NCBI GenBank assembly: GCA_001004885.1
Contig: LCRX01000006.1
Span: 35,079 to 99,078 of the forward strand
Source: Candidatus Magasanikbacteria bacterium GW2011_GWA2_56_11
GTDB taxonomy: Bacteria > Patescibacteriota > Patescibacteriia > Magasanikbacterales > UBA922
Length of the DNA: 64,000 nt
Direction of reading: 5' to 3'
In this document: one piece after another, positions 16,013 to 35,120 of the stretch
How the letters are laid out: each line of letters opens with the position of its first letter
Position numbering within the stretch: position 1 is the first letter of the stretch
Program-made: the position numbers and the translations under genes
Notes under the pieces: model-generated
The model's database searches: none
What the model was told of the DNA's origin: nothing
Seen by the model: only the letters and a program-made list of their open reading frames with translations

Positions 16013-16798
16013 ATGGCCGAGATTCACATTCCGACTCTGGCTCCCGAAGTGCTGGCGCATGTGGGGCCAGTGGCTATCACCAACACCATGGTCAATACCT
16101 GGCTGGCGTTGGTGATATTCGCGGTGCTCGGCGTCATAATTACGCGGCAGGCCAGCTTGCGGCCCGGCAAGCTTCAAAACGGGGCGGAATACATTTTGGA
16201 ACAGCTCCTGGGTTATTTTGACCAGGTAACCGGCGACCCGGCCAAGACGCGGCGGTTTCTTCCCCTCGTCGGTTCGATTTTCTTTTTTATCCTGCTCTCA
16301 AATTGGCTGGGACTCTTGCCGGGAACCGGCAGCCTTTCGTACGGACACAGTTTTGTCCTGCGGCCGGCCAATACCGATCTTAATTTGACGCTGGCCATGG
16401 CCTTGACTTCGGTGGCCGCTTCGCATCTGTTCGGCTTTATCACCGTCGGATTTTTTAGCCACGCCGGTAAATTTTTTCAAATCAAAGGCATCTTCCGGAG
16501 TTTGACCAAAGGGCCGGTCGCTATCTTTACCGCTGTCATTGAGTTTATGGTCGGACTGATCGAAATTGTGAGCGAAGCCGCCAAAGTCTTGTCGCTGTCC
16601 CTGCGGTTGTTCGGCAACATTTTTGCCGGCGAGGTGCTTATTTCCGTCATCAGCGCCTTGGTAACGGCTTTGGTTCCGACGCCGTTTATGCTTTTGGAAC
16701 TGCTGGTTGGCCTGATTCAGGCTTCGGTTTTCGCCATGTTGACACTGGTGTATCTGACTGTCGCGAGCGAGGCGCCGCACGGGTCGGAGGAGCATTAG
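16013..16798 (+). CDS. atpB: F0F1 ATP synthase subunit a
   Basis: 261 aa and polytopic, with the conserved Arg-containing LSLSLRLFGNIFAGE helix. Confidence 0.9.
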   Translation: MAEIHIPTLAPEVLAHVGPVAITNTMVNTWLALVIFAVLGVIITRQASLRPGKLQNGAEYILEQLLGYFDQVTGDPAKTRRFLPLVGSIFFFILLSNWLGLLPGTGSLSYGHSFVLRPANTDLNLTLAMALTSVAASHLFGFITVGFFSHAGKFFQIKGIFRSLTKGPVAIFTAVIEFMVGLIEIVSEAAKVLSLSLRLFGNIFAGEVLISVISALVTALVPTPFMLLELLVGLIQASVFAMLTLVYLTVASEAPHGSEEH

Positions 16799-16904
16799 AC
16801 CGAGTTCTACTTAACGGTTCAGGGACAACAGCCGGCCAAGCCCGGACGCTGTCCCTGAACGGTTGGGCAGAATAAATTATTAATTGATACCGCCGCGAGG
16901 CTAA

Positions 16905-17180
<276 letters not shown>

Positions 17181-17254
17181 ACCGACTCTGTCCCGTAGCC
17201 GTGCTAGGGGACAGGTCTCGGATAATTTCACTTTTTGCCTTTTACTAACATTCT

Positions 17255-17824
17255 ATGAGTGCCGTTACTGAAATCGCCGTGACCGAATCGGCTCCGGTGG
17301 CCGAGCTATCCGAAACCACCGCGGCCGAGGGCGGAGTGGCCGCTTCGCTCGGGCTTAACGCCCAGCTGTTTGGCTGGCAATTATTGAATTTTGCCGTGGT
17401 CGCGCTAATCGTGTGGTTCCTCATCCTCAAGCCGCTGGCCAAAAAAATGGAAGAGCGCCGGAAGATAATCGACGACAGTCTGGATCAGGCGCGCGAGATC
17501 GAAACCCGGCACGCCCTAAGTCGGGAGCAGTACCAGACAGCGGTGGCCGAGGCCAAGGCCGAGGCCAACCGGATAGTCGCCTCGGCGCACGACGAAGCGG
17601 CGGCGCTTGCCGGCCAGATGAAAGGCGAGACTAAGAAAGAGATCGACGTTCTGGTATCCCAGGCCAAGAAAAATATCGAGCTTGACCGCCAGAATATGCA
17701 GCAGGAAGTAAAAAAAGAGATAGTGGACGTGGTGATCGCGGCCGTGGAAAAAATTCTCGAAGAGAAGCTCGACGAGAAAGAAGACCGTAAACTCGTCGAA
17801 GGGGCCCTTAAAAGCATCAAATAA
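17255..17824 (+). CDS. atpF: F0F1 ATP synthase subunit b
   Basis: Single N-terminal TM helix followed by a long charged helix. Confidence 0.8.
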   Translation: MSAVTEIAVTESAPVAELSETTAAEGGVAASLGLNAQLFGWQLLNFAVVALIVWFLILKPLAKKMEERRKIIDDSLDQAREIETRHALSREQYQTAVAEAKAEANRIVASAHDEAAALAGQMKGETKKEIDVLVSQAKKNIELDRQNMQQEVKKEIVDVVIAAVEKILEEKLDEKEDRKLVEGALKSIK

Positions 17825-17832
17825 CCATTGCT

Positions 17833-18225
17833 ATGCGCAAATTATTGCCGCGCCATTTCGGGAAAATGCTCTACCAGCTTACGCGGGATCTTCCGGAAAA
17901 AGAACTGGACCAGGCGGTGGCAGAGTTCGTGAAATTTATGGCGCGGCACCGGGCTTTTCGCCGCCTGGATCGCATTATCGCGGCTTACGAGGTCTACGCT
18001 CGGGAGCAGGACGGTGCCGAGGATATTACCCTCGTGAGCGCCCGCCCCTTACCCGAGGCGCTGGCCGCGAAAGTAGTCAGCCATTTTGGCCGCGGGGGCA
18101 AGATTGAAACGATTGTGGACGAAACCCTTATCGGCGGACTGATAGTCAAAACCCGCCGCCGCGTTCTCGACGCCAGCGTCAAAACGCAGTTGCGCGGTCT
18201 TAAAAACGACATGTTGGCGGATTGA
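17833..18225 (+). CDS. atpH: F0F1 ATP synthase subunit delta (short, 130 aa)
   Basis: The C-terminal LIGGLIVKTRRRVLDASVKTQL matches the OSCP/delta C-terminal domain; the N-terminal domain is much shorter than usual. Confidence 0.7.
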   Translation: MRKLLPRHFGKMLYQLTRDLPEKELDQAVAEFVKFMARHRAFRRLDRIIAAYEVYAREQDGAEDITLVSARPLPEALAAKVVSHFGRGGKIETIVDETLIGGLIVKTRRRVLDASVKTQLRGLKNDMLAD

Positions 18226-18239
18226 CCCGCTGTTTTACA

Positions 18240-18391
18240 GAACTCACAGCGAGCCCCCTTCGCCGAAACATAGACTGATTTTCGCGGCGCCAAAACTCGC
18301 TCTTGTGGGCTCAGACATTGGTGCCGCGAAAATCAGTCTATGTTTCGGCTCAACTTAGAGAAGAGAATTGCTAATAACTCACTATCAGTTT
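18240..18391 (+). repeat. ~150-bp intergenic repeat element, copy B, with a 27-bp perfect stem
   Basis: GCCGAAACATAGACTGATTTTCGCGGC (18273-18299) is the exact reverse complement of GCCGCGAAAATCAGTCTATGTTTCGGC (18332-18358), with a ~32-nt loop between them. The element lies between atpH and atpA. Confidence 0.85.
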
Positions 18392-18423
18392 ACACTTAAT
18401 TCAGGCAAGTTTGTTCACCGCGT

Positions 18424-19917
18424 ATGTCTTACACTGATCAGGTTATCACTTCTCTCAAAAAAAACGTGGCTTCGTTCGAGAAGCGCGTGGATGTCTCCGA
18501 GGTTGGCACCGTTATTGAAGTCGGCGACGGCATCGCCCGCATGGACGGCCTGGATAAATGCCAGGCGCTCGAGATGCTTGAATTCCCCGGCGGAATTTTC
18601 GGTATTGCCCTCAACCTGGAAGAGGAAACCGTCGGCGCGATTATTTTGGGCGACTTCAAAAAAATTAAAGAAGGCGACAGCGTTAAGCGCACCGGCCGCA
18701 TTATGTCCATCCCGGTAGGCGAGGCGATGATCGGACGCGTGGTCAATTCTCTCGGCGAAGCGGTTGACGGCCGGGGAAAAATCAAGACAGAAACTCTCTA
18801 TCCGCTTGAACGCGTGGCGCCGGGCGTGATTACCCGCGAGCCGGTGAACCGGCCGCTGCAGACCGGCATCAAGGCCATAGACGCCCTCATACCCATCGGC
18901 CGCGGCCAGCGCGAGCTTATTATCGGCGACCGCCAGACCGGGAAAACCGCCGTGGCCATAGACGCTATTATCAACCAAAAAGGCCAAAACGTGATCTGCG
19001 TCTATGTGGCTGTCGGGCAGAAAGAATCAAAGGTGGCCCGCGTGGTGGCCAAGCTCAAAGAGGCCGGCGCCATGGAGTACACGACGGTCTTTATCGCCGG
19101 CGCCTCCGAACCGGCCCCGATGTCTTATCTGGCCCCGTACGCCGGTGTCTCTCTCGCCGAGTACTTTGCCGACAAGGGCAAGGACGTACTCATAATTTAC
19201 GATGATTTGACCAAGCAGGCCTGGGCCTACCGCGAGATGTCCCTTTTGCTCCGCCGGCCGCCGGGACGCGAGGCTTATCCGGGCGATGTTTTCTATCTCC
19301 ACTCCCGTCTTTTGGAGCGCGCCTGCAATCTGAACAAAGAGCATGGTGGCGGCTCCATCACCGCGCTGCCCATTATCGAGACGCAGGCCGGAGATATCAG
19401 CGCCTATATTCCGACCAACGTTATCTCGATCACCGACGGCCAGATTTTTCTGGAAACTGAATTGTTTTACCGCGGCATCCGCCCGGCCTTGAACGTCGGT
19501 TTGTCCGTCTCGCGCGTCGGCGGTTCTGCCCAAATTAAACCCATGAAAAAAGTGGCCGGTAGCATGAAGCTCGCGCTGGCCCAATTCCGCGAACTGGAAG
19601 CGTTCGCGCAATTTTCTAGTGATCTTGATCCAGAAACCAAAAAGCAAATTGAGCGTGGTCGTCGTATTACCGAACTCCTCAAACAGCCGCAATATTCACC
19701 CATGCCGGTGGCGTCGCAGGTAATGATTATTTACGCCGTGAACAATGGTTTCTTTGATAGTACCGAAATCAGCGCTATTACCGAAAAGCAAAACGCGTTT
19801 GTGGAATTTATGAGTTCGGCGAAGAGCGCGCTATTAGATAAAATTAGTGCCGGTGAATGGAATGAAGAAACGGAAAAAACGATCGCATCATCTTGCGAAG
19901 AATTTTTTACTAAATAA
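18424..19917 (+). CDS. atpA: F0F1 ATP synthase subunit alpha
   Basis: Walker A motif GDRQTGKT. The last ~100 codons are markedly lower in GC. Confidence 0.95.
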
Positions 19918-19926
19918 TTAAATTAT

Positions 19927-20550
19927 ATGGGAGAATTTGAAAGAACTCCACGCTCCCTAGAACAAGTATTAAGTGAACGAGGTTTGACCATTGACCCTAT
20001 CGCGGCAGTTCCTGACCATATAACTATCAGACCCCTTGCTAAGGAACTACAAGTGAAAGCTAAAATTGATGTCCTCGGAATTGCTACTGTTGTTTTCTTT
20101 GAAAATCCAGAAGAGGCGGGAAAATTTATGGCAGTCTGGTGCTTCAATGGAGAAGAAACAACGAGAAAATATGGCAATAGGATTGACGTAGAAGCAGAAG
20201 TGGCGGAGTCAATTGAACTTAATTTGCGCAGTGAAAAAGAAAAAAACGAAGCTGTTGTCGAATTATATTCATTAGTTAATAGATACGGCGGCTCTATAAA
20301 GGAAATTCGTGAATTCCCCGCAGATTTAGATGGCACGGGTTCATTTTATATGAAACCTTCAGATTTTGGTCCCGAAGGCCGTACTGTTTTAAGGATGGAT
20401 TTTCCACACGGGATAACGATTTTGTCCTTGCCAGTTTCTGGTCGCGAATTGTATGTCGGTCTTTTTAAGAACGGAAAGTATCAGGGCGGAAATGGAGATT
20501 TTTCGGTTCACGAAATAGAGTCTAATATCAGAATTCTAAACGAAGGATAA
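19927..20550 (+). CDS. hypothetical protein inserted between atpA and atpG (low GC)
   Basis: 207-aa ORF with no recognisable motif. Its composition is far more AT-rich than the surrounding operon. Confidence 0.6.
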   Translation: MGEFERTPRSLEQVLSERGLTIDPIAAVPDHITIRPLAKELQVKAKIDVLGIATVVFFENPEEAGKFMAVWCFNGEETTRKYGNRIDVEAEVAESIELNLRSEKEKNEAVVELYSLVNRYGGSIKEIREFPADLDGTGSFYMKPSDFGPEGRTVLRMDFPHGITILSLPVSGRELYVGLFKNGKYQGGNGDFSVHEIESNIRILNEG

Positions 20551-20558
20551 ATGGTTAT

Positions 20559-21503
20559 ATGGCCGTCAATTCCAAAGCAATTAAACAACGCATCAAGTCG
20601 GTTAAGAACACCAAAAAAATGACCAAGGCCATGGAAATGGTCTCGGCCGCGAAGATGCGCAAAGCCGTCCAGGGTACGCTCGCCACCAGAAGCTACGCGG
20701 TCATGGCGCGCGAGCTCATGGAGGCGCTTTCGGCCGGCATCGAGGTCCAGTCTCCGCTTCTCGAGTACCGCCCGGTGGCGCGGCTTTTGGTGGTGCTTAT
20801 CAGCTCCAATCGCGGACTTTGCGGCAGCTTTAACGCGAATATCTTCAAAAAGGCCAGGCAAATTTTACGGGAGAAACAAAGCCTCGGCCGCCACCGCACG
20901 GCCCGCGGCGAAACGATCGAGCCGGCGGCCGAGATCGCCATTGACATTCTTGGCGTCGGCAAGAAGAGCGCCTGGTTCGCGCGCCAGTCCGGCTATCCGC
21001 TCGTGGCCGCGTTTGACGAGCTTTCCGAGCGGCCCACATTCGAAGAAATCATTCCGATCACGCGCTTCGTGATGGACGCTTTCAGCCAGAAAACTTATGA
21101 CAAGGTCGCCGTTTTGTTCACCGATTACAAGTCGAGTTTGGCCCAGGAAGTGAAGGTCAGACAGCTATTGCCCATTTCGGCTCACGACCTGGAAAAAATG
21201 CTTCGAGACTCGGTTGGGGATGCCGGCGATCCGCGCGGCATCGACTCCGAACATTACGTATTTGAGCCTAGCCCGTCGTTGATCGTACAGACCGTTTTAC
21301 CGCGGCTGGCGGAGGTACAGCTGTATCAGGGAATTTTGGAATCAGCGGCCAGCGAGCACAGCGCCCGCATGGTGGCGATGAAGAGCGCCACCGAAGCGGC
21401 GGGCGAGATGATTGATATGCTGACATTAGAATTCAATAAGGCGCGGCAGGCTTCCATTACTCAAGAAATCGCCGAGATTGCCGGGGGCGCGGCCGCTCTG
21501 TAA
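20559..21503 (+). CDS. atpG: F0F1 ATP synthase subunit gamma
   Basis: N-terminal MAVNSKAIKQRIKSVKNTKKMTKAMEMVSAAKMRKA is the gamma-subunit signature. Confidence 0.9.
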   Translation: MAVNSKAIKQRIKSVKNTKKMTKAMEMVSAAKMRKAVQGTLATRSYAVMARELMEALSAGIEVQSPLLEYRPVARLLVVLISSNRGLCGSFNANIFKKARQILREKQSLGRHRTARGETIEPAAEIAIDILGVGKKSAWFARQSGYPLVAAFDELSERPTFEEIIPITRFVMDAFSQKTYDKVAVLFTDYKSSLAQEVKVRQLLPISAHDLEKMLRDSVGDAGDPRGIDSEHYVFEPSPSLIVQTVLPRLAEVQLYQGILESAASEHSARMVAMKSATEAAGEMIDMLTLEFNKARQASITQEIAEIAGGAAAL

Positions 21504-21527
21504 TAATACACTTAGACACTAGAATAA

Positions 21528-22922
<1,395 letters not shown>

Positions 22923-22930
22923 TCTTTCCT

Positions 22931-23269
22931 ATGAGTAGAGACCGAGAATCGAGGCCAATAAGCCTGATGAGAGAAATGTTGCGTCAGGATTACGCCCAGG
23001 GGGTTCGTATTCTGGCGCGCGACGTCCTGGCGGTGCAGAAAGAACCGGATTGGTCCGGCTATGTCGCCGAGGTGATTGAACATGCCCGGACTGGCGAAAC
23101 ACGCAATCCGGAAGTAGACGCCATTTTGGCGCGGATACTCATGAAAAAACATTATTTAACTCTCGAAGAGATAGTAGCGATATCCGATGACGTCGCCCGA
23201 GAGTGCCTTGTTCTCCTCGGGGGAGATATAGCCGATCATTATGCAGAGTCCGGACAAGCTACAATTTAA
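22931..23269 (+). CDS. hypothetical protein (112 aa) between atpD and atpC
   Basis: Its only support is that it fills a 318-bp gap inside the operon; there is no Shine-Dalgarno and no recognisable motif. Confidence 0.3.
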   Translation: MSRDRESRPISLMREMLRQDYAQGVRILARDVLAVQKEPDWSGYVAEVIEHARTGETRNPEVDAILARILMKKHYLTLEEIVAISDDVARECLVLLGGDIADHYAESGQATI

Positions 23270-23669
23270 GCTCGTTACTCCCGATGGCATCGTCTACGAC
23301 GACGCCATCGACCAGGTCAGCATCCCGACAGCCGCGGGCGAGATTACGGTTTTGCCGCGTCATATTCCGCTCGTTTCGATTATCAGCGCGGGAGAACTAA
23401 GGCTAAAAAAGGATGGCGCCGAGATACCGCTCGTAGTCTCCGGCGGTGTTCTGGAGATTCGTCCGGGCAGCCAACTTTACGTTCTGGCCGATACCGCGGA
23501 GAGAGCCGAGCATATCGACATGGAACGCGCGGAAGCGGCCCGGGCGCGCGCCGAAGAGCTTATGAAACAGAAGGAACAGATGGCCGATGTCGACTTTGCC
23601 CGCTTGCAGGCCAAAATGGAAAAAGAACTGGCCCGCCTGCGCGTCGGCAGAAAGTACCGGAAAATTTAG
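23241..23669 (+). CDS. atpC: F0F1 ATP synthase subunit epsilon
   Basis: N-terminal beta-sandwich (LVTPDGIVYDDAIDQVSIPTAAGEITVLP) plus a C-terminal helical hairpin. Confidence 0.85.
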   Translation: MQSPDKLQFKLVTPDGIVYDDAIDQVSIPTAAGEITVLPRHIPLVSIISAGELRLKKDGAEIPLVVSGGVLEIRPGSQLYVLADTAERAEHIDMERAEAARARAEELMKQKEQMADVDFARLQAKMEKELARLRVGRKYRKI

Positions 23670-26552: not shown

Positions 26553-27743
26553 ATGGTTCAAGGTGAAACTCGACCCCAAGATATAACCAGGGAGACAGTC
26601 GAAACAGGAGAGAGGTTGCACCCGGTCGTGGCGGATGTATTCGCCGACCTGGAAGGAGAAAACGGAAGAAATTATGAAGGCGATAATTTGGAGACGATTA
26701 GACGCCGAACTCGGGAAACAAACGGGCGTAAGCCCTTTGACGAAGAAAAAGTATTGGTCCAAGAATTAACCAGCCAGTTATGGCCCGTGGATAAGCTAGA
26801 TCCCCATGTGGTCAAGCGGGCCAGAACGATCCTCAGCGAAAAAGCCAACAATCATCTTGACGATCGGGTGGGCCGGGCAGAGTTTAAAATTGAACGAGAT
26901 ATCTCGGATGAAGAAGCTATCGAAATGGCCCGCGCGATGCAGATGCGGTTTTTTGCCGAGCGGGCCGTGAAGGGCGCTACCTACCCGGGTTATGCTGCCA
27001 GGGCGCTGGAGCCGCTTGCCGGCTGCAGGGTGACGGAGATGGATGGCGATCGAAAAATGATCGATACCCGCAAACCTGATGAACCTACCCCCCACCGGAT
27101 CGTCGCCGGGCCGGAGCAATTTCGAGTCGCCGACGAACAAGTGGTCGACGCCTACAATACTTTTAGGGCTTTTTTGGATCTCAAAGGAACTAAATTAACC
27201 CTGGACCAGGCGGACGCGGCTGAATTCAAAAGGCGTTTTCCGAATTTGAGGCTAAACAGCGAAGGCCTGGCTTATCTTGCCGGCGGCAACGATCAGCAAC
27301 GCCGCGATAATCTGCAAACGGCCGAGCGGGATTACCTGATGGTAAGAGAAAAACTGGCTGAACGCCTGCAGAGTGAACTTGGCGGCAGCGAGCCCTTGAC
27401 GGAAAATCAGCTGCGCAGACGCCTCAAAGAGGTGGAAGCTGAAAACAGGCAGCTGCATGGAGATTTAGAGTTAGAACAGGACAACAGGCGGTCGGCCGAA
27501 CAGCGCGCCGAAGCAGCCGAGCGTAATGTCGGAATTGCTGAAGTGGAAGAAAAAGGATTGCGGCTCGCGGCCACGGAGGCCAAGAAGAAGGGCGAGGCTA
27601 ATGTTGAGGCCTTGAAAAGGGATGTAAACGCCAAGCTGGCGGAGATACAAGCGCTCCTAGCCGGGGCCAGGTTCGGCAATAAGGGTGAGGTGATAGAAGG
27701 AGCCCAGGGGGCCATAACTGAATTGTTAAAGTCCCTTAAGTAA
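26553..27743 (+). CDS. hypothetical charged protein with a C-terminal coiled coil
   Basis: 396 aa with no TM segment. The last ~120 aa are heptad-like and rich in E, R, K, A and L. Confidence 0.5.
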   Translation: MVQGETRPQDITRETVETGERLHPVVADVFADLEGENGRNYEGDNLETIRRRTRETNGRKPFDEEKVLVQELTSQLWPVDKLDPHVVKRARTILSEKANNHLDDRVGRAEFKIERDISDEEAIEMARAMQMRFFAERAVKGATYPGYAARALEPLAGCRVTEMDGDRKMIDTRKPDEPTPHRIVAGPEQFRVADEQVVDAYNTFRAFLDLKGTKLTLDQADAAEFKRRFPNLRLNSEGLAYLAGGNDQQRRDNLQTAERDYLMVREKLAERLQSELGGSEPLTENQLRRRLKEVEAENRQLHGDLELEQDNRRSAEQRAEAAERNVGIAEVEEKGLRLAATEAKKKGEANVEALKRDVNAKLAEIQALLAGARFGNKGEVIEGAQGAITELLKSLK

Positions 27744-27840
27744 AAGAGATTTTCGTGTCTGCCTTTGGCCATATATTTTTTTCGGGGCATGAGATAGCTG
27801 CCGCGAAGTATGTCTCCTGTTTTGGGGATATGACGTATAA

Positions 27841-27869
27841 TTGACAGTCGGTGAACTGCTGAGTATTAT
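27841..27869 (+). promoter_or_regulatory. near-consensus sigma70 promoter for the complex-I-like operon
   Basis: TTGACA, a 17-bp spacer, then TATTAT, 44 nt upstream of the first ATG. Confidence 0.6.
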
Positions 27870-27912
27870 ATAGCCAACGGGATTATATTTTTGCCGCCGC
27901 CGGCGCGGATAT

Positions 27913-28434
27913 ATGCTTAAGCTGTACGCCAAGATATTCGCCACTCCCCAGACAGCGATCGGCCTGCCGGAACTCAAGGACGGGGAGGTCGAAATCGTTG
28001 GAAAAAAAATCGCGGCCAAAGTGGCCAAGCTGTTTCGCGGCTCGCTCGCTATCCGCGAGGTGGACGCCGGCTCGACCAACGCCTGCGAGCAGGAGCTGAC
28101 CGCGCTCGGGAATTCTTATTACGACGTCGAGAGATTCGGCATTCATTTCGTCGCCTCGCCCCGGCACGCCGACATGCTTATGGTTACCGGACCCGTGTCG
28201 AGAAACATGAAAGAGGCGCTCATCCGGACGTATGAGGCCACGCCAGACCCGAAAATCGTGGTGGCGGTCGGCGACGACGCCATAGACGGCGGGATTTTTA
28301 AGGGCTCCTATGCCGTCCTCGACGGGGTCCACAACGTCATTCCGGTTGATTTCCGGATTCCCGGCGATCCGCCGTCGCCCAAAACGATTTTGATCCATTT
28401 GCTTAAAATTCTCGAGATCATCGATTCCCGCTAA
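27913..28434 (+). CDS. NuoB / hydrogenase small-subunit-like protein lacking the Fe-S cluster cysteines
   Basis: The NuoB fold motifs are present but the ligands are replaced. GSTNACEQE stands in for CCxxE, VAVGDDAIDGG for GxCAxxGG, and IPGDPPSP for GCPPRP. The whole protein has a single Cys. Confidence 0.75.
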   Translation: MLKLYAKIFATPQTAIGLPELKDGEVEIVGKKIAAKVAKLFRGSLAIREVDAGSTNACEQELTALGNSYYDVERFGIHFVASPRHADMLMVTGPVSRNMKEALIRTYEATPDPKIVVAVGDDAIDGGIFKGSYAVLDGVHNVIPVDFRIPGDPPSPKTILIHLLKILEIIDSR

Positions 28435-28459: not shown

Positions 28460-30505
28460 ATGTTTACCGCGGTCAGCGCCCAATCAAGTTTTTTCCTCGC
28501 CCTCCTGTTTTTGGGGCTGGGATCGCTGGGTTCTGCTTGCCTGTGGAAAAAAGACGCGGCCGCCAATTGGTGGGGCAACCTCTGCGCGATAACGGCGTCT
28601 GTGTTTGGGCTGCTGTCGGCCATCCGCGTTCTTCTTGGCGGGGCCGCGTTTTCTTTGGCGGCCGATTCCCCGCTGGGGGCGCTGTCATTTTCCTTTACGG
28701 TTGATAAACTGTCCGCTTTTTTCATTTTTGTTATCTCGCTCATCGCCCTGCCGGCCTCCATTTATGGCCTGGGTTACGTGAAGCATTACTACGGCAGATA
28801 TTCTCCCGGCGTCCTCGGTTTTTTCTACAATCTTTTTCTGGCCGGCCTGTTTTTGGTCGTGAGCGCCGATAATGCCCTTTTTTTCCTGACAGTTTGGGAA
28901 ATCATGTCCCTGGCTTCGTACTTTTTGGTCATTTTCGAACACCGCGAGCCGGATAATATCAGCGCCGGCACGCGTTACTTTATCATGACCCACGCCGGGA
29001 CCGCTTGTATCATACTGGCGTTTCTTGTCTTGTATCGTTTTACGGGATCGTTTGAGTTTGACGTCATCAGGGAAAATTTCGCCGCTGTTCCGGCCTACGC
29101 AAAGAATATTGTTTTTTTGCTCACGCTCGCCGGTTTTGGCACCAAGGCCGGCATTATACCGCTGCACATTTGGCTGCCAAGCGCGCACCCGGCGGCGCCG
29201 ACGCACGTGTCCGCGCTCATGTCCGGGGTCATGATAAAAACCGGCATTTACATGTTTATCCGGATTTTGATTGATTTCTCGCCTGGCGCGCCGTTGTGGT
29301 GGGGGATAGCGGTTCTCCTGATTGGAGCGGCGTCATCGCTTTTCGGCGTTTTGTACGCCCTCACGGAGCATGACATTAAGAAACTGTTGGCTTATCACAG
29401 TATCGAGAATATCGGCATCATTCTTTTGGGCCTGGGCAGCGCGCTTGTTTTTTGGGCTGCCGGAGCGGAATCACTCGCCATGCTCGGTCTCATCGCGGCC
29501 TTGTTCCACACCCTCAATCACGCCGTTTTCAAGGCGCTGCTGTTTTTGGGCGCCGGCTCGGTTATCTCCCAGACGCGCACCCGCAACATGGAGGAGTACG
29601 GCGGCCTGATACGGACTATGCCTTATACCGCGGCTTTGTTTCTGACCGGTTCTCTGGCCATATCGGCTTTGCCGCCTTTCAATGGTTTTGCGAGCGAATG
29701 GCTGACTTTTCAGTCGCTTTTTAGCGGGTTCGGGTCATTCGGCCGTTCGGTGGCCGGGGTATTCGCGCTCTCGGCCGGAGCGCTGGCCTTTACTGGCGGC
29801 CTGGCCGCGGCCTGTTTTGTCAAAGCATTCGGCGCGACCTTCTTGGCGCGGCCGCGCAGTGTCGAAGCCGCGCGCTCCAGAGAGTCGGCGCCCTCCATGG
29901 TGCTGGGCATGGGCGTGCTTGCCCTGCTAACGCTCGTCATTGGAATTTTTTCCGGAGTCGTTTCCCGCGTGCTCTCGGTCGTGGTCGCCGACCGGCCGGG
30001 ATTCTCTACGGTGCCGGTTCCTGTTTCCGTCCCGGCCGCGAGCCTGAGCCTGGGCAGCGGTTTCGCCGCGATGTCTTTGCCGCTCGTCTTTGTGTCCCTG
30101 GCCGCCGTGAGCGCGCTGGTGGCTTTTTTGACGTATCTCGCGACGGCCGGCCGGCGCGTAAAAATTGGCCGCACCTGGGATTGCGGTACCGACCTCACCC
30201 CCCGCATGGAGATAACCGCGACCGGGTTTTCCCGTTCTCTCATTTCGATATTTCGGGGAATATTAAAGCCGAGCAAACAGACTACCATCGAGTATCGCGA
30301 CGCGGATAGCCGGTTTTTCCCCCAGACCAGATCGGTTAAACTGGAGATTAAAGATGTTTACAGCGCTTATTTTTACCGTCCGGTCGAGCGCCTGACAATG
30401 GCTCTGGCGGCGCAGATAAAAAAAATCCAGTGCGGCAATGTAAACGCCTATATCGTTTACTTGTTTGCCGCCCTGATAGCGCTTTTAGTCTGGGCTGTGA
30501 TCTAA
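28460..30505 (+). CDS. HyfB / NuoL / MrpA-like antiporter-type membrane subunit
   Basis: 681 aa and polytopic, with FLTVWEIMSLASYFLV and WLPSAHPAAPTHVSAL motifs. Confidence 0.8.
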   Translation: MFTAVSAQSSFFLALLFLGLGSLGSACLWKKDAAANWWGNLCAITASVFGLLSAIRVLLGGAAFSLAADSPLGALSFSFTVDKLSAFFIFVISLIALPASIYGLGYVKHYYGRYSPGVLGFFYNLFLAGLFLVVSADNALFFLTVWEIMSLASYFLVIFEHREPDNISAGTRYFIMTHAGTACIILAFLVLYRFTGSFEFDVIRENFAAVPAYAKNIVFLLTLAGFGTKAGIIPLHIWLPSAHPAAPTHVSALMSGVMIKTGIYMFIRILIDFSPGAPLWWGIAVLLIGAASSLFGVLYALTEHDIKKLLAYHSIENIGIILLGLGSALVFWAAGAESLAMLGLIAALFHTLNHAVFKALLFLGAGSVISQTRTRNMEEYGGLIRTMPYTAALFLTGSLAISALPPFNGFASEWLTFQSLFSGFGSFGRSVAGVFALSAGALAFTGGLAAACFVKAFGATFLARPRSVEAARSRESAPSMVLGMGVLALLTLVIGIFSGVVSRVLSVVVADRPGFSTVPVPVSVPAASLSLGSGFAAMSLPLVFVSLAAVSALVAFLTYLATAGRRVKIGRTWDCGTDLTPRMEITATGFSRSLISIFRGILKPSKQTTIEYRDADSRFFPQTRSVKLEIKDVYSAYFYRPVERLTMALAAQIKKIQCGNVNAYIVYLFAALIALLVWAVI

Positions 30506-30509: not shown

Positions 30510-31439
30510 ATGTCATTGTTCGGTTTGTGGTTTTTGCAACTCCTCCTTGTGCCGGCCTTGTCGCCGCTGTTTATCGGCATTGTCCGCCGGGTTAAGGCCA
30601 GGCTGCAGAATCGGGTGGGCGCGAGGGTAACCCAGCCGTACCGCGATATTCTGAAACTTTTTCGCAAGGACGAGGTCGTAAGCGCCGATGCTTCCTGGAT
30701 CTTTAGCAGCGCGCCGTATCTTATTTTTGCCGTCTCCATTCTTTTGGGAGCCAGTATCCCGCTTCTATCCGCGCACCTCACGGCTACCGTGCTCGGCGAT
30801 CTTCTGACGGTCGTCTACGTTATTGCCCTCAGCACGTTCTTTTTGGCTTTAGCCGGCATGGATACCGGCAACGCTTTCGGCGGATTCGGATCAAGTCGCG
30901 AAATGACCGTGGCCGCTTTGACCGAGGGCGGGCTTATTTTTTCGCTCCTGGCCCTGGCGTTCACGGCCCATTCGAGCAATCTGTTTGTCATCGCCGGGGC
31001 TATTTCCAGCTTGTCGCTTCTCGCTTTTACCCCGATTATTTTGGCTTTTGTGGCGTTTGTTATCGCGCTTCTCGCCGAAACCGGCCGGTTTCCCTTTGAC
31101 AATCCGGCCACCCATCTCGAGCTGACCATGATCCACGAAGCCATGATCCTCGAATATTCCGGCAAGAAACTGGCGCTCATGGAGTGGGCGGCGGCCAACA
31201 AGTTCATGCTGTTTCTCGCGCTCGGAGCGAACCTGTTTTTTCCGTGGGGGCTCGCCGCTTCGGCTTCGCCCCCGGCGCTTATTTTGGCCCTGGGAGCCTT
31301 AGTTTTCAAGCTGTTAGTCTTTTGCGTTTTGGTCGCCCTCCTGGAGTCGAGCCTGGCCAAATTTCGGTTTTTCCGCCTGCCTGATCTTTTGTTCATGTCG
31401 TTCATATTAAGCCTGATCGCGCTTTCGCTCATCGTGTAG
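30510..31439 (+). CDS. HyfC / HycD / NuoH-like membrane subunit
   Basis: 309 aa with eight TM segments and a NuoH-like loop pattern. Confidence 0.7.
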   Translation: MSLFGLWFLQLLLVPALSPLFIGIVRRVKARLQNRVGARVTQPYRDILKLFRKDEVVSADASWIFSSAPYLIFAVSILLGASIPLLSAHLTATVLGDLLTVVYVIALSTFFLALAGMDTGNAFGGFGSSREMTVAALTEGGLIFSLLALAFTAHSSNLFVIAGAISSLSLLAFTPIILAFVAFVIALLAETGRFPFDNPATHLELTMIHEAMILEYSGKKLALMEWAAANKFMLFLALGANLFFPWGLAASASPPALILALGALVFKLLVFCVLVALLESSLAKFRFFRLPDLLFMSFILSLIALSLIV

Positions 31440-31443: not shown

Positions 31444-32103
31444 ATGGATTTTTTTAGCGCCCAATTTCTCTTTTTCGTCCAGACGCTGCTGTTTGCCTCG
31501 GTTATTTTCATGCACCTGTCCAAAAAAAGCGCCTCCGTTATTTTTCTTTATCAGGTTCAATCGCTTATAGTCGCCTGCCTGCTTCTCGGTTCGGCCTTAG
31601 CCGAGTCAGCGATTTTTCCGCTTTTCGTGGCCGTCGTGGTGTGCGCGGTAAAAGTAGTCATCGCGCCGCATTTCTTTCGGCGGCTCACCCGGGAGCTGCA
31701 GCTCAAATTTTCCGCCAGCACCTATTTGAGCGGTCCCTTGACGCTTATCATTCTCGCGGCCTTGACGGCGTTTACCTACTCGCACTTTTTTGCCCCTCTT
31801 TCCACTCTCAACGCGTCAAACGCCCGCGCTCTTCTTCTCGCCGCGGCGATGATGCTGGCCGCCTTGTTTTTGATCGTCAACCGCAAGGGCGCCCTCTCCC
31901 AAATGATCGGCATTTTGTCCTTGGAAAACGCCATTGTCGCTTTTGCTTTTCTTTCCGGGCTCGAACAATCGCCGGCTCTGGAGCTCGGCGTCCTGTTCGA
32001 CATTTTAATGTGGATAATCATCGCCACGGTGTTCGCGTCCATGGTTTACCGGCAATTCGGTTCTCTCGACGTGACGGCGATGAACTCTCTCAAAGAAGAA
32101 TAA
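31444..32103 (+). CDS. HyfE / NuoK-like membrane subunit
   Basis: 219 aa with a LSLENAIVAFAFL motif. Confidence 0.65.
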   Translation: MDFFSAQFLFFVQTLLFASVIFMHLSKKSASVIFLYQVQSLIVACLLLGSALAESAIFPLFVAVVVCAVKVVIAPHFFRRLTRELQLKFSASTYLSGPLTLIILAALTAFTYSHFFAPLSTLNASNARALLLAAAMMLAALFLIVNRKGALSQMIGILSLENAIVAFAFLSGLEQSPALELGVLFDILMWIIIATVFASMVYRQFGSLDVTAMNSLKEE

Positions 32104-32107: not shown

Positions 32108-33544
32108 ATGCTGCTCATCATTCTTCTCTGCGTTCCGTTCGCCGCTTCCGTCCTGTCTTGGCTGGTCAAAAAAAGGACTCTCGTTTTGGAATCTTTGGCG
32201 GCGGGCGCCTCGACAATCGAACTGGCCGCGGCGCTCTCTTTGGCGGGTTCGGTGGCGAAAAGCGGGCCGTATTCCCTGACCGATAGTTTTTCGGTTGACC
32301 CGCTGGGAGCGGTCGTCATCTTGATTTTGGCCATTATTGGCGTGGTGGCGGCGTGGTATTCGGCCGGCTACCTGCGGGCCGAAGTGGAGAAGAGCATCAT
32401 CGGTTTTCACCGGGTGCGGCAATATTTTGTTCTGCTGCATCTTTTTATTTTTGCCATGTTCTTTGCCGTCGCCACGACCAGCCCCACCCTCATGTGGATC
32501 GCCATCGAAGCCACGACGCTCTCCACCGCCTTTCTTATCAGTTTTTACAATAATGCCTCGGCCACGGAAGCGGCCTGGAAATATTTGCTTGTCAACTCGG
32601 TCGGATTACTTCTCGGATTTTTTGGCACGCTTTTGTTTTTGTCCCCGGCCGAATCAGCCGGACTCACTGATTGGAATTCGCTCTTTGCCGCCGCGGCGGG
32701 CTTTGATCCGTTTATCGCGAAGATAGCCTTCGTTTTTGTATTCATCGGATACGGCACCAAGGTCGGATGGGTGCCTATGCACACCTGGCGGCCGGACGCC
32801 TACAGCAAGGCGCCGATTCCGGTGGTGGCGCTGTTTTCGGGCTCGCTCCTGAGCGTGGCTTTTTTGGCCGTGCTCCGTTTCAAGCTGATCGCGGACGCCA
32901 GCCTGGGCGGAGATTTTTCCGCCAACATGCTCATTGGCTTCGGACTCTCTTCCATCGTCGTGGCCGCTTTCAGTATGCTCGGACAAAAAAATTATAAGCG
33001 GTTGCTCGCCTATTCGAGCATCAAGCACGCGGGTATAATCGCCCTGGGATTTGGTTTCGGGGGCGCCGCGGCCGGAGCCGCTCTCCTGCATCTTATCTAT
33101 CACGCCCTGGCCAAGTCAGCTCTGTTTTTGTCGGCGGGAAATATTTTTTTGAAATACAGTTCGACCAAGGTGGAGAACGTGCGCGGGGTGTTGTCGGCTC
33201 TGCCGGTTACCGGCGTCCTGTTTCTCGCCGGATTTGTGGCCATAATCGGCCTGCCGCCGTTCGGTTTGTTTTTTACCGAATTATCCATTCTAGCGGCCGG
33301 AATTCAGTATCATCCGGCGGTATCCGTGATTGTCCTCTTGGCGCTCGCCTTGGGGTTCATCGGCTTTCTGCGCCATGCGGTTGCCATGATGTTTGGCGAA
33401 CGCGAAAAAAGGATAGCGCCGGGCGAAGCCGGAGTTTGGACCATCGTTCCCATTATTATTCTTTTGGCCATTCTAGCGGCCGCGAGTTGGTATCTGCCGG
33501 TGTCGTTTCGGTCGTTATTGGAATCTGCCGTCTTAGCCTATTAA
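32108..33544 (+). CDS. HyfF / NuoM / NuoN-like antiporter-type membrane subunit
   Basis: 478 aa with the proton-conducting-membrane-transporter pattern (WVPMHTWRPDAYSKAP). Confidence 0.75.
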   Translation: MLLIILLCVPFAASVLSWLVKKRTLVLESLAAGASTIELAAALSLAGSVAKSGPYSLTDSFSVDPLGAVVILILAIIGVVAAWYSAGYLRAEVEKSIIGFHRVRQYFVLLHLFIFAMFFAVATTSPTLMWIAIEATTLSTAFLISFYNNASATEAAWKYLLVNSVGLLLGFFGTLLFLSPAESAGLTDWNSLFAAAAGFDPFIAKIAFVFVFIGYGTKVGWVPMHTWRPDAYSKAPIPVVALFSGSLLSVAFLAVLRFKLIADASLGGDFSANMLIGFGLSSIVVAAFSMLGQKNYKRLLAYSSIKHAGIIALGFGFGGAAAGAALLHLIYHALAKSALFLSAGNIFLKYSSTKVENVRGVLSALPVTGVLFLAGFVAIIGLPPFGLFFTELSILAAGIQYHPAVSVIVLLALALGFIGFLRHAVAMMFGEREKRIAPGEAGVWTIVPIIILLAILAAASWYLPVSFRSLLESAVLAY

Positions 33545-33548: not shown

Positions 33549-35120
33549 ATGCTTTCCAGCTCCTCTTTTGCCGCCTATATTCCTCCTGGGTTTAAGCCCA
33601 AATTCGAAGGTAACCTGGCCACCGGCGCGGTTTCTGTTTCCGAGATCGCCGGGGTGTGCCACGACCTGTACTTTACGCGTGGGCTCGAATTAAAAACTAT
33701 CACGGCTACCGACGAGCGGAACAGGGGCGGAGGTTTTAGAATTTTCTACGTATTCGGCGTGCCCAAACAAAATTTGTTTATCATCCCGTACATCGTTCTG
33801 GCCGACACCGCGGAATTTCCTTCTCTGACCAAAGATATCCACGAAGCTTCGAGCTACGAACGGCGGATTATGACGTTTTTCGGCCTCAGCCCGGCCGGCC
33901 ACCCGCATCCGCGGCCGCTTATCCTCCATGAAAATTGGCCGGCGGACGTTTTTCCGCTGCGCCAGGATTTTAATTGGCAAGAGCGTCCGGCCGCCGCGCG
34001 CGGCAATTACGAATTTTACCGGGTGGAAGGGGAGGGGATTTACGAAATTCCGGTGGGTCCGGTGCACGCGGGCATTATCGAGCCTGGCCACTTTCGTTTT
34101 AGCGTCGCCGGAGAGGAAATTATGCTGCTTGAGGCCAAACTTGGTTACAAACACAAGGGAATTGAAAAACTTTTCGAGAACCTACCGCTCGCGAGCACAT
34201 TGCGTCTGGCCGAGAGGATTTCCGGGGACACGTCGTTTACCCACGCTCTGGCTTTTTGTCAGGCGATTGAACAGCTGACTGAATTGCCGGTTCCCAGGCG
34301 CGCCGCCTACCTCCGCGTCATTTTTTCCGAGCTGGAACGGCTTGCCAACCATGCCAACGACATCGGTTTTATCATGCTCGATACGGGTTATAGTTTTGGC
34401 GGCAGCCAAGGGGCGCGGCTGCGTGAAGTTATCATGCGGTGGAACGAACGCCTAACCGGCAGCCGCTTCCTTCGCGGCGTTAATGTTTTCGGCGGCGTGG
34501 CCAAGGATATTACTCCGGAAGCGGGTAACGAACTCGAGGCCGCGCTCCAGGCGTGGCAGCGCGACTTTGACCAGGTGATCGCCATTGCCGAGGATAGCCA
34601 CTCTTTGCTCAATCGTCTCGAGGACACCGGCAAACTGGATTATCAGCTAGCCGTTGATCACGGCATTGTAGGCGTGGCCGGGCGCGCCGTTGGACTCAAG
34701 AAGGACGCGCGGCTCGATTATCCCTACGCGGCTTACGCTGAGCTTCCCCTAGAGATCGCGGTCGAGAAAGACGGCGACGTCCGGTCGAGATTTTATGTCC
34801 GCGTCAAAGAAGCGCGCTCTTCGGTCGCGCTCATTTTGGCGGCCTTGAAGAACCTGCCTAGGGGTGAGTGTTCGGTCGGGGAACAACGCGTTAAATTAGC
34901 CAGGAACCGCTGCGCTGTCGGCCTGGCCGAAGGCTGGCGAGGCGAGATTGTCTATTTTGTTATGACCGGGGATACAGGCGATCTCGCGAGAGTTGACGTT
35001 CGCGATCCGTCATTCGTCAACTGGGCCGTGCTCGGCCATGCCGGCAGAGGCAATGTCGTGCCGGATTTTCCCCTGATCAACAAGAGTTTCAATTTGTCCT
35101 ACTCGGGTAACGACTTGTAG
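33549..35120 (+). CDS. fused NuoC-NuoD / HycE-like large subunit lacking the [NiFe] cysteine ligands
   Basis: NuoC-like N-terminus (ERRIMTFFGLSPAGHPHPRPL), then NuoD-like GPVHAGIIEPGHFRF in place of RxCGxCxxxH, and C-terminal DPSFVNWAVLGH in place of DPCxxCxxH. Confidence 0.75.
   Translation: MLSSSSFAAYIPPGFKPKFEGNLATGAVSVSEIAGVCHDLYFTRGLELKTITATDERNRGGGFRIFYVFGVPKQNLFIIPYIVLADTAEFPSLTKDIHEASSYERRIMTFFGLSPAGHPHPRPLILHENWPADVFPLRQDFNWQERPAAARGNYEFYRVEGEGIYEIPVGPVHAGIIEPGHFRFSVAGEEIMLLEAKLGYKHKGIEKLFENLPLASTLRLAERISGDTSFTHALAFCQAIEQLTELPVPRRAAYLRVIFSELERLANHANDIGFIMLDTGYSFGGSQGARLREVIMRWNERLTGSRFLRGVNVFGGVAKDITPEAGNELEAALQAWQRDFDQVIAIAEDSHSLLNRLEDTGKLDYQLAVDHGIVGVAGRAVGLKKDARLDYPYAAYAELPLEIAVEKDGDVRSRFYVRVKEARSSVALILAALKNLPRGECSVGEQRVKLARNRCAVGLAEGWRGEIVYFVMTGDTGDLARVDVRDPSFVNWAVLGHAGRGNVVPDFPLINKSFNLSYSGNDL

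What the first reader, a model, noticed from the sequence alone, without database searches (positions are those of the whole stretch)
27913..28434. NuoB-like subunit in which three of four N2-cluster cysteines are replaced by A, D and D
The motif positions can be read directly. CCxxE is GSTNACEQE here, GxCAxxGG is VAVGDDAIDGG, and GCPPRP is IPGDPPSP. Only one cysteine remains in 173 residues, so a [4Fe-4S] cluster cannot be bound in the canonical way. The two Asp substitutions might coordinate a different metal or nothing at all.
Basis: seen in the sequence. Interest (0 to 1): 0.6.

Follow-up and report, generated by a model that had tools for sequence, protein, structure and literature searches.

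The report
Iron-sulfur-free hydrogenase-like (Ehr) small subunit
This gene encodes the small subunit of a conserved complex-I/hydrogenase-like membrane complex (an "Ehr" complex of ultra-small CPR bacteria) that appears to have lost all its usual redox metal-binding sites, so it probably moves ions without moving electrons.

Summary
ORF 27913-28434 (+) is a 173-aa NuoB/hydrogenase-small-subunit homologue with one cysteine. Alignment to HycG, MbhJ and complex I PSST puts T55/A57, D122 and D152 at three of the four [4Fe-4S] ligand positions; only C58 remains.

It is not an artefact. The exact protein occurs on 9 contigs from at least 4 samples. In 80 related genomes D122 is kept in 97.5% and D152 in 95%, with mixed GAC/GAT codons. 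C58 itself is lost in 13 of 80.

The gene opens a six-gene operon (NuoB-, HyfB-, NuoH-, HyfE-, HyfF-, NuoCD-like). The large subunit has also lost all four NiFe cysteines and the complex I quinone-site residues. No ferredoxin-like subunit is encoded. The charged residues of the membrane ion path are conserved.

This is an Ehr (energy-converting hydrogenase-related) complex. A CPR clade of Ehr large subunits lacking NiFe ligands was reported by Jaffe et al. 2020. In the papers I could search, neither the Fe-S-free small subunit nor a second feature was mentioned. That feature is that the operon often directly follows, and once sits inside, the F1Fo ATP synthase operon.

Most likely it is a redox-dead, Mrp-like ion translocator working with the ATPase. 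Function is inferred only.

The parts
27841..27869 (+). Promoter-like site (TTGACA-17-TATTAT, 11 of 12 matches), 44 bp upstream of the start codon
   Evidence: This is a consensus match only, not shown to be functional.
27913..28434 (+). Small subunit (NuoB/HycG/MbhJ-like, 173 aa) without Fe-S ligands. The ex-ligand positions hold T55 (A57 on the complex I mapping), C58, D122 and D152.
   Evidence: It is the most conserved subunit of the six.
28075..28086 (+). Codons T55-N56-A57-C58, replacing the CxxC (hydrogenase) or CC (complex I) ligand pair
   Evidence: In the family T/D/S occupy position 55, and position 58 holds C in 67, A in 6, E in 5, P in 1 and V in 1 of 80.
28273..28278 (+). Codons D121-D122. 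D122 replaces the third Cys ligand.
   Evidence: D122 is present in 78 of 80 loci, with codons GAC 37 and GAT 41.
28366..28368 (+). Codon D152, replacing the fourth Cys ligand (PGCPP becomes PGDPP)
   Evidence: D is present in 76 and N in 4 of 80 loci, with codons GAT 42 and GAC 34.
28460..30505 (+). HyfB/HycC/NuoL/MrpA-like antiporter-type subunit (681 aa)
   Evidence: Pfam Proton_antipo_M 7.7e-60. NCBIfam 'hydrogenase 4 subunit B' 677 bits, above the 667 cut-off. HycC 7z0s_C 5.5e-76. Conserved E147, K229, H236, H243, K260, H350, H354, K358, E413.
30510..31439 (+). NuoH/HycD-like membrane subunit (309 aa)
   Evidence: Pfam NADHdh 1.3e-44. HycD 7z0s_D 1.9e-46. Many conserved acidic residues.
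31444..32103 (+). HyfE-like membrane subunit with a NuoK-like C-terminal half (219 aa)
   Evidence: NCBIfam hydrogenase 4 membrane subunit 7.8e-15; Pfam Oxidored_q2 1.9e-4. Conserved E161 and E174.
32108..33544 (+). HyfF/NuoN/MrpD-like antiporter-type subunit (478 aa)
   Evidence: Pfam Proton_antipo_M 1e-46; NCBIfam hydrogenase 4 subunit F 2.9e-118, below its cut-off. Conserved E134, K218, K234, H328, H332, K336.
33549..35120 (+). NuoC+NuoD / HycE-like 'large subunit' fusion (523 aa) without NiFe ligands. It has RISGDTSFTH where hydrogenases have RxCGxCxxxH, and NLSYSGNDL* where they have DPCxxCxxR.
   Evidence: Family statistics: S225 in 60 of 61, D227 in 61 of 61, S517 in 61 of 61, G520 in 60 of 61. 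The HRGxE motif is HKGxE, with K203 in 59 of 61.

Best explanation
The ORF is the small subunit of an Ehr-type (energy-converting hydrogenase-related) complex, of the kind found in CPR/Patescibacteria. The complex descends from a group-4 membrane-bound [NiFe]-hydrogenase of Hyf/4f-like composition.

The complex has lost every canonical redox site. The small subunit has lost the proximal [4Fe-4S] cluster. The large subunit has lost the NiFe centre. No ferredoxin-like (NuoI/HycF) subunit is encoded. No complex I quinone-site residues have been acquired.

The former cluster cavity is filled mainly with carboxylates (D122, D152, often D55). These plausibly reproduce the negative charge of a Cys4-ligated cluster and pair with the conserved basic residue of the large subunit's HRGxE-type motif, so the peripheral arm stays folded (inferred).

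The membrane arm keeps the complete set of charged residues used for ion transfer in complex I, Mbh and Mrp. The complex therefore most likely works as a non-redox, Mrp-like cation/proton translocator. In CPR bacteria it would act together with the F1Fo ATPase, for example with ATP hydrolysis building a proton gradient that this module converts or uses (inferred).

Shown: homology, loss of the ligands, conservation, operon structure, linkage to the atp operon. Inferred: absence of any metal, ion-translocating activity, coupling to the ATPase.
For: Homology and ligand loss are.

The six-gene operon has 4-25 bp gene spacing and is syntenic in essentially all 80 related loci.

The large subunit matches HycE at 6.6e-78. 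All four NiFe Cys are replaced by S, T, S and G. Nqo4 H38 aligns with I177 and Y87 with G226. These replacements are themselves 98-100% conserved.

A ferredoxin CxxCxxCxxxCP motif occurs in only 6 of 81 loci and never at a syntenic position. Cys content is low throughout the six proteins.

Purifying selection is evident. D122 is kept in 97.5% and D152 in 95% of loci with mixed synonymous codons. The small subunit is the most conserved of the six. The exact protein is on 9 contigs.

Acidic residues are enriched at the ex-ligand positions. 11 of 15 independent Cys-poor representatives carry 2-3 D/E there, against 0.45 expected.

The basic residue next to the former N2 site is retained: K203 in 59 of 61 and R in 2 of 61. 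Its role in complex I is described in PMC8042128.

Membrane-arm Glu/Lys/His chains are conserved.

ATP synthase genes lie within 10 kb in 18 of 81 loci. In at least 9 loci they sit directly upstream in the same orientation. In L049 the six genes lie between atpG and atpD.

Literature: CPR Ehr large subunits lack the L1/L2 Cys (PMC7304191). Ehr function is unknown (PMC10284858). [quoted passage not shown]
Against: No biochemical data exist for any member. Absence of Cys does not prove absence of a metal, because Asp, Thr and Ser could bind a hard cation.

If the peripheral arm were merely a structural cap, it is not obvious why its small subunit should be the most conserved component. The ex-NiFe pocket (S225, D227, S/T228, H232, S517, Y518, D522) is also nearly invariant. 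This hints at a specific binding or catalytic role that the antiporter model does not explain.

MrpB, MrpE, MrpF and MrpG equivalents are absent.

Linkage to the atp operon is seen in only about 22% of loci. It is seen in none of the large non-CPR contigs (for example L004, L009, L010, L022).

The AlphaFold model was too poor to test the salt-bridge idea.
Confidence: 0.6

Rival explanations
1. The Asp/Thr/Cys (or Asp/Asp/Glu) set forms a new, functional metal site. It might bind a hard cation such as Na+, Ca2+, Mg2+ or Zn2+, or a non-cubane Fe. The site would sense or gate ion translocation, or be the coupling-ion site itself.
For: Three oxygen ligands are brought together where a cluster used to sit. 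D121, D122 and D152 are 95-98% conserved, and E59 and E61 are invariant. Acidic residues recur at these positions in independent Cys-poor lineages. A carboxylate appears to move between positions: C58/D122 in this family against E58/G122 in sister clusters. The small subunit is the most constrained subunit.
Against: The residues are not a fixed ligand set across the wider clade. Position 55 holds T/D/S/N/E, position 58 C/E/A/V/P, position 122 D/G/E/A and position 152 D/N/S. Variants GDG and PGN exist within the close family. The same pattern fits simple charge or packing replacement of the cluster. No metal-site motif was recognised by Pfam or NCBIfam.
Confidence: 0.2
2. The peripheral arm carries out non-redox chemistry in the conserved polar pocket of the NuoD-like subunit. 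Ion flow through the membrane arm would drive this chemistry or be driven by it. Precedents for antiporter-type modules coupled to non-redox chemistry are CO2 hydration by cyanobacterial NDH-1MS/CupA and by DAB complexes.
For: The ex-NiFe pocket residues are almost invariant: S225, D227, S/T228, S229, H232, S517, Y518, D522, and the E178-P-G-H181 loop. The peripheral subunits are as conserved as, or more conserved than, the membrane subunits. That non-redox coupling to antiporter-like subunits exists is my own knowledge of NDH-1MS and DabAB, not tested here.
Against: No catalytic domain or known active-site motif was detected. No substrate-related gene is a conserved neighbour. There is no candidate reaction.
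Confidence: 0.15
3. The complex is still a redox enzyme. It would receive electrons from a separately encoded partner, such as the formate dehydrogenase or NuoEF-like module proposed for the Margulisbacteria and Saganbacteria FDH-Ehr complexes.
For: This was proposed for other Ehr complexes in PMC6349859. In L011 the cassette lies next to a Fer4-NuoB fusion that keeps all its Cys.
Against: There is no cluster in the small subunit to relay electrons and no catalytic metal or quinone site to receive them. No Fe-S partner is syntenic. The Margulisbacteria Ehr carries a NuoB-NuoI fusion, which this family lacks. CPR genomes generally lack such modules.
Confidence: 0.04
4. The pattern is a sequencing or assembly error, or the gene is a decaying pseudogene.
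For: None beyond the unusual motif itself.
Against: The identical protein is on 9 contigs from at least 4 independent samples. There are hundreds of homologues at 65-93% identity with the same pattern. The Asp codons vary synonymously. The frame is intact and six-gene synteny is conserved.
Confidence: 0.01

Closest known systems
[quoted passage not shown] 2020 (PMC7304191). The concept comes from Coppi 2005 and Marreiros et al. 2013, which were not readable here.
   Same: It is a group-4-hydrogenase-like gene cluster. The large subunit lacks the L1/L2 NiFe cysteines. It is found in CPR bacteria with a patchy, transfer-like distribution. Function is unknown.
   Different: The texts I could search describe only the large-subunit loss. 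Here the small subunit has also lost its [4Fe-4S] ligands and no NuoI-type ferredoxin module exists. By contrast the Margulisbacteria Ehr has a NuoB-NuoI fusion, and the second Ehr-type cluster in L011 has a Fer4-NuoB fusion with all Cys. The family is also present on Mb-sized non-CPR contigs and is often fused to the atp operon.
E. coli hydrogenase-4 / formate hydrogenlyase (HyfBCEFGI, HycCDEG; PDB 7z0s) and group 4f hydrogenases
   Same: These are the best structural and sequence relatives of every subunit: HycG 5e-30, HycE 6.6e-78, HycC 5.5e-76, HycD 1.9e-46. The subunit repertoire is the same (HyfB, C, E, F, G, I homologues).
   Different: The true hydrogenases keep the CxxC...C...C cluster ligands, the NiFe CxxC pairs and the HycF/HyfH and HycB/HyfA ferredoxin subunits. 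All of these are missing here.
Respiratory complex I NuoB/Nqo6/PSST (cluster N2)
   Same: Same fold family (PF01058). The position at the NuoD/NuoH interface is presumably the same.
   Different: There is no tandem-Cys N2 site. The partner subunit lacks the quinone-site His and Tyr. There are no NuoI, NuoE, NuoF or NuoG genes.
Mrp-type multisubunit cation/proton antiporters
   Same: There are two MrpA/MrpD-type subunits with conserved TM5 Glu, TM7 Lys and TM12 Glu, plus a NuoK/MrpC-like element. There is no redox chemistry. This is the proposed working analogy.
   Different: Mrp has no NuoB/C/D/H-like subunits, and it has MrpB/E/F/G subunits that are absent here.

Membership tests
NuoB / [NiFe]-hydrogenase small-subunit superfamily (Pfam PF01058 Oxidored_q6) | Sequence match above the curated threshold | tested here: met
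   89.3 bits against a cut-off of 27. PDB relatives score 5e-30 to 1e-16.
NuoB / [NiFe]-hydrogenase small-subunit superfamily (Pfam PF01058 Oxidored_q6) | Four Cys ligands of the proximal/N2 [4Fe-4S] cluster | tested here: not met
   Only C58 remains. T55/A57, D122 and D152 replace the others. C58 is absent in 13 of 80 relatives.
Respiratory complex I subunit NuoB proper | NCBIfam/TIGRFAM NuoB models above their cut-offs | tested here: inconclusive
   NF005012 scores 116.7 against 116, barely above. TIGR01957 scores 106.5 against 142.7, below. All equivalog models are far below their cut-offs.
Respiratory complex I subunit NuoB proper | Complex I context: quinone-site His38/Tyr87 in NuoD, and NuoI, NuoA/J and NuoEFG genes | tested here: not met
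   H38 aligns with I177 and Y87 with G226. No such genes are in the operon.
Group 4 membrane-bound [NiFe]-hydrogenase (Hyf/Hyc/Mbh/Ech) | L1 (RxCGxCxxxH) and L2 (DPCxxCxxH/R) NiFe-binding motifs in the large subunit | tested here: not met
   The motifs read RISGDTSFTH and NLSYSGNDL and are conserved as such in 60-61 of 61 relatives.
Group 4 membrane-bound [NiFe]-hydrogenase (Hyf/Hyc/Mbh/Ech) | Homologous subunit set (small, large, NuoH-like and antiporter-like subunits) in one operon | tested here: met
Group 4 membrane-bound [NiFe]-hydrogenase (Hyf/Hyc/Mbh/Ech) | Ferredoxin-type 2x[4Fe-4S] subunit (HycF/HyfH/MbhN/NuoI-like) | tested here: not met
   No Fer4 hit in the operon. The CxxCxxCxxxCP motif is present in only 6 of 81 loci and is never syntenic.
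[quoted passage not shown] | Group-4-hydrogenase-like cluster whose large subunit lacks the NiFe cysteine ligands. This is the definition used in PMC6349859, PMC10284858 and PMC7304191. | tested here: met
[quoted passage not shown] | Placement inside the monophyletic CPR Ehr clade of Jaffe et al. 2020 | not testable with these tools
The nearest named relatives are CPR lineages (Magasanikbacteria 82%, and Kerfeld-, Uhr- and Paceibacteria). However, equally close copies sit on 2.8-3.1 Mb non-CPR contigs.
Mrp-type cation/proton antiporter (working analogy only) | MrpA/MrpD-type subunits with conserved ion-path residues | tested here: met
   HyfB-like: E147, K229, K260, K358, E413. HyfF-like: E134, K218, K234, K336.
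Mrp-type cation/proton antiporter (working analogy only) | MrpB/E/F/G subunits, and measured antiport activity | tested here: not met
   No such genes are in the operon. Antiport activity cannot be tested with these tools. The complex is therefore not filed as an Mrp member.

The most novel reading that the evidence does not exclude
A complex-I-like machine with no redox cofactors is a dedicated partner of the F1Fo ATP synthase in bacteria that lack a respiratory chain. It would use or reshape the ATPase-generated ion gradient. The Asp/Ser-lined remnants of the Fe-S and NiFe sites would serve as a cation- or substrate-binding control site. That would make it a natural 'electron-free' version of the complex I coupling machinery, and part of the answer to how CPR bacteria manage membrane energetics.
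Probability: 0.25. Interest if true: 0.8.

Novelty: new member of a known kind. Interest (0 to 1): 0.5.

Why it matters
Complex I, the membrane-bound hydrogenases and Mrp antiporters share one ion-translocating machine. How chemistry in the peripheral arm drives that machine is still debated. A strongly conserved relative that keeps the NuoB/NuoD/NuoH junction and the full membrane ion path, but has no Fe-S cluster, NiFe site or quinone site, is a natural experiment. It shows which parts of the junction are needed without electron transfer.

It also bears on an open question for CPR/Patescibacteria. They keep an F-type ATP synthase but have no respiratory chain (PMC11665869). An Ehr-type module that directly follows the atp operon, or is inserted into it, gives a concrete and testable candidate for what the ATPase works with.

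For annotation, these proteins should not be read as evidence of NADH dehydrogenase or hydrogenase activity. Sources currently name them 'NADH-quinone oxidoreductase subunit B family' or 'Ni,Fe-hydrogenase III small subunit'.

Tried and rejected
(1) Structure prediction of the small subunit used a 24-sequence alignment (A1). The mean pLDDT was 45, so the model is unusable and no fold search was run. The alignment was too shallow, with members 73-82% identical.

(2) The primary Ehr papers (Marreiros 2013, Coppi 2005) are not held. I therefore could not check whether loss of the small-subunit cysteines was already noted there. Ten full-text searches found no statement on it.

(3) I searched for conserved neighbours other than atp genes. 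Only housekeeping genes turned up in subsets of loci: D-Tyr-tRNA deacylase, SmpB, sigma-70, an AHSA1-like protein and ABC exporters. No formate dehydrogenase, hyp maturation gene or Fe-S partner was found.

(4) I looked for a riboswitch or other RNA element upstream of the operon. There were no Rfam hits in the window or in 27650-27960.

(5) I first took R223, the R of the L1 motif, as the N2-adjacent arginine. After reading PMC8042128 I corrected this to the HRGxE motif (H202-K203-G-x-E206).

(6) The artefact and pseudogene readings were rejected.

Full report
OBSERVATION

The ORF at 27913-28434 (+) is real and intact, and it encodes 173 residues with a single cysteine, C58. It matches Pfam Oxidored_q6 at 89.3 bits against a cut-off of 27. 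Its best solved relatives are the small subunits of group-4 hydrogenases: E. coli HycG (7z0s_G, 5e-30) and P. furiosus MbhJ (6cfw_J, 7e-29). Complex I PSST/NuoB/Nqo6 follow at about 1e-22 to 1e-16.

- HycG 'CGGCNGCE', MbhJ 'SGSCNGCD' and complex I 'CCAVE' align with 'AGSTNACE'.
- 'GACGNSGG' aligns with 'GDDAIDGG', so Cys aligns with D122.
- 'PGCPP' aligns with 'PGDPP', so Cys aligns with D152.

One refinement is needed. The protein is a hydrogenase-type small subunit, which uses a CxxC first pair. The first lost ligand is therefore best read as T55. It is A57 only on the complex I CC numbering.

NOT AN ARTEFACT

The identical 173-aa protein is called on 9 contigs from at least four independent samples. 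The best 120 database relatives are 73-93% identical. The 11 of them whose sequences I read all show the same pattern. A genome scan returned 80 loci at 64-82% identity.

In those loci G53, S54 (79 of 80), N56 (79 of 80), E59, E61, G120, A123, G126, G127, P153 and P154 are invariant or nearly so. D121 is kept in 95%, D122 in 97.5% and D152 in 95% (the remainder are Asn). C58 is kept in only 84% and is replaced by A, E, P or V in 13 loci.

The Asp codons are split almost evenly between GAC and GAT. The residues are therefore held by selection, not by recent common descent. Since the last Cys is dispensable, no cysteine-ligated cluster of any kind can be a family property.

WHAT IT BELONGS TO

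The gene is the first of six tightly spaced genes with gaps of 4-25 bp, and a near-consensus promoter lies at 27841-27869. The six genes are:
- the NuoB-like small subunit;
- a HyfB/HycC/NuoL-like subunit, 28460-30505;
- a NuoH/HycD-like subunit, 30510-31439;
- a HyfE-like subunit, 31444-32103;
- a HyfF/NuoN-like subunit, 32108-33544;
- a NuoC-NuoD/HycE-like fusion, 33549-35120.

This order is conserved in essentially all 80 loci, whereas the flanks are not.

The large subunit matches HycE at 6.6e-78, but all four NiFe cysteines are gone. 'RvCGiCgfaH' has become 'RISGDTSFTH' and 'DPCYSCTD' has become 'NLSYSGND'. The complex I quinone ligands are also absent: Nqo4 H38 aligns with I177 and Y87 with G226. 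The replacements are themselves nearly invariant: S225 in 60 of 61, D227 in 61 of 61, S/T228, S517 in 61 of 61 and G520 in 60 of 61.

No ferredoxin-type subunit is encoded. There is no Fer4 hit in the operon, and a CxxCxxCxxxCP motif occurs in only 6 of 81 loci at non-syntenic places. The complex therefore has no recognisable electron entry, relay or exit site.

That combination is the published definition of an Ehr (energy-converting hydrogenase-related) complex: related to group-4 and 4f hydrogenases, lacking the NiFe CxxC motifs, function unknown (PMC6349859; PMC10284858; PMC5037454). Jaffe et al. 2020 reported that CPR bacteria carry a monophyletic Ehr clade whose large subunits lack the L1/L2 cysteines (PMC7304191; their Fig. 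S6b).

The window itself looks like a CPR genome. Almost all genes are on one strand, and ComEC, PilM, FemAB and an F-type ATP synthase are present. The closest named relative of the operon is Ca. Magasanikbacteria.

WHAT IS ADDED HERE

(a) The small subunit of this Ehr type has also lost its cluster. The Ehr described for Margulisbacteria carries a NuoB-NuoI fusion. In locus L011 (Lentisphaerae), a second Ehr-type cluster with a Fer4-NuoB fusion that keeps all its Cys flanks the Cys-less cassette. Fe-S-containing and Fe-S-free Ehr types therefore coexist. I found no mention of the small-subunit loss in any text I could search. The two founding Ehr papers were not readable, so I cannot exclude that it was noted there.

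(b) Among representatives clustered at 50% identity, the nearest relatives outside the family are ordinary four-Cys small subunits ('DAGSCNGCELEI ... GDCA.DGG ... PGCPP'; 93 of 130 complete patterns). Fifteen independent Cys-poor clusters show varied replacements, and 11 of the 15 carry two or three acidic residues at the four ex-ligand positions, against 0.45 expected by composition. In sister clusters the pair C58/D122 is replaced by E58/G122, as if one carboxylate had moved.

(c) The small subunit is the most conserved of the six proteins. Its mean pairwise identity is 67%, against 51-64% for the others.

(d) The family is not confined to CPR. Equally similar copies lie on a 3.08-Mb Victivallales chromosome and on 0.8-2.8-Mb contigs of other bacteria. 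This indicates lateral transfer of the whole cassette.

(e) F1Fo ATP synthase genes lie within 10 kb in 18 of 81 loci. In at least nine loci the operon starts 4-530 bp after atpC or atpD in the same orientation. In L049 (Ca. Azambacteria) the six genes sit between atpG and atpD inside the atp operon. In the window the atp operon ends 4.2 kb upstream.

HOW IT MOST LIKELY WORKS

Shown. The redox ligands are gone in both peripheral subunits. The membrane arm keeps the full chain of charged residues that carries ions in complex I, Mbh and Mrp:
- HyfB-like: E147, K229, H236, H243, K260, H350, H354, K358, E413;
- HyfF-like: E134, K218, K234, H328, H332, K336;
- two Glu in the NuoK-like half of HyfE;
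- a dense set of conserved acidic residues in the NuoH-like subunit.

Inferred. The complex is an ion translocator that no longer uses electron transfer. The carboxylates at the former cluster site carry roughly the negative charge of a Cys4-ligated [4Fe-4S] cluster. The basic residue that lies 3.7 A from N2 in complex I (the HRGxE motif; PMC8042128) is retained as K203 in 59 of 61 relatives and as Arg in the other two. An Asp-Lys contact could therefore replace the cluster-Arg contact and keep the junction folded.

[quoted passage not shown] In that picture this complex would be such an antiporter-type partner.

Confidence. I put the identity (an Fe-S-free Ehr small subunit) at about 0.9, the Mrp-like, ATPase-linked function at about 0.4, and the two combined at 0.6.

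RIVALS

A hard-cation site formed by the Asp/Thr set (0.2) and non-redox chemistry in the invariant polar pocket of the NuoD-like subunit (0.15) are both compatible with the unusually strong conservation of the peripheral arm. They may in fact explain it better than a purely structural cap. Sequence alone cannot separate them.

Redox function through a partner supplied in trans (0.04) has no relay or acceptor site to use. Artefact or pseudogene (0.01) is excluded.

VERDICT

The gene is a member of a known kind of system, the Ehr complexes, and specifically of the clade already reported in CPR. It is therefore not a new class.

Three details were not found in the searchable literature: complete loss of Fe-S ligands in the small subunit, absence of any ferredoxin module, and physical linkage to the ATP synthase operon. 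They make this a useful and testable case for complex-I-type coupling and for CPR bioenergetics. Interest is 0.5.

Noticed in passing
window 16013-23669 (atp operon), and L049 5542-19434; also L028, L033, L034, L067, L069, L074, L079, L013, L014: F1Fo ATP synthase genes are next to the Cys-less Ehr operon in 18 of 81 loci. In at least 9 loci the operon starts 4-530 bp after atpC or atpD on the same strand. In L049 (Ca. Azambacteria) the six genes are inserted between atpG (9091-9984) and atpD (17472-18839).
   Followed up: partly
L011 (Lentisphaerae GWF2_38_69) 3399-17996: The Cys-less six-gene cassette (10001-17222) lies between two parts of a second Ehr-type cluster. Upstream are that cluster's HyfB/NuoH/HyfE/HyfF/NuoCD-like genes (3399-9989), whose large subunit is also NiFe-less. 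Downstream is a Fer4-NuoB fusion that keeps all cluster Cys (17232-17996). It looks as if the cassette inserted into another bioenergetic operon.
   Followed up: partly
L022 (OZ245791.1, 3.08 Mb Victivallales chromosome), L010 (2.79 Mb contig), L004, L009; L003 and L008: The same Fe-S-free operon, with 74-78% identity for the small subunit, occurs in large non-CPR genomes. One MAG (MFD09730.bin.2.52) has three copies: two on contigs of about 14.8 kb, and one (L009) with fragmented HyfB-like, NuoH-like, HyfF-like and NuoCD-like genes. This indicates lateral spread of the cassette. The fragmentation may be long-read error or decay.
   Followed up: no
window 19927-20550 and 22931-23269: Two ORFs with no Pfam match sit inside the atp operon. 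One of 207 aa lies between atpA and atpG. One of 112 aa lies between atpD and atpC and overlaps the atpC start.
   Followed up: no
window 790-3699: The leucyl-tRNA synthetase (969 aa) carries a NUDIX domain hit at residues 426-517, after the editing domain.
   Followed up: no
window 26553-27743: A 396-aa charged protein rich in Glu, Lys and Arg, with no Pfam or NCBIfam match, lies directly upstream of the operon. It is not conserved next to the operon in other loci.
   Followed up: partly
window 17024-17254 (+), found in the translation of 15951-17300: In the ATP synthase c subunit the ion-binding Glu sits in an 'AFAEAIAIY' context, with no Ser or Thr after the Glu. This looks proton-type rather than Na+-type. 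The inference is weak and rests on my recollection of the Na+-binding motif.
   Followed up: no
window 14-58387: 53 of 55 called ORFs of at least 80 aa between positions 14 and 58387 are on the + strand. There are no tRNA genes and no Rfam hits in the 64 kb.
   Followed up: no
window 50043-51080: A Ham1 (ITPase) and NUDIX fusion protein of 345 aa.
   Followed up: no
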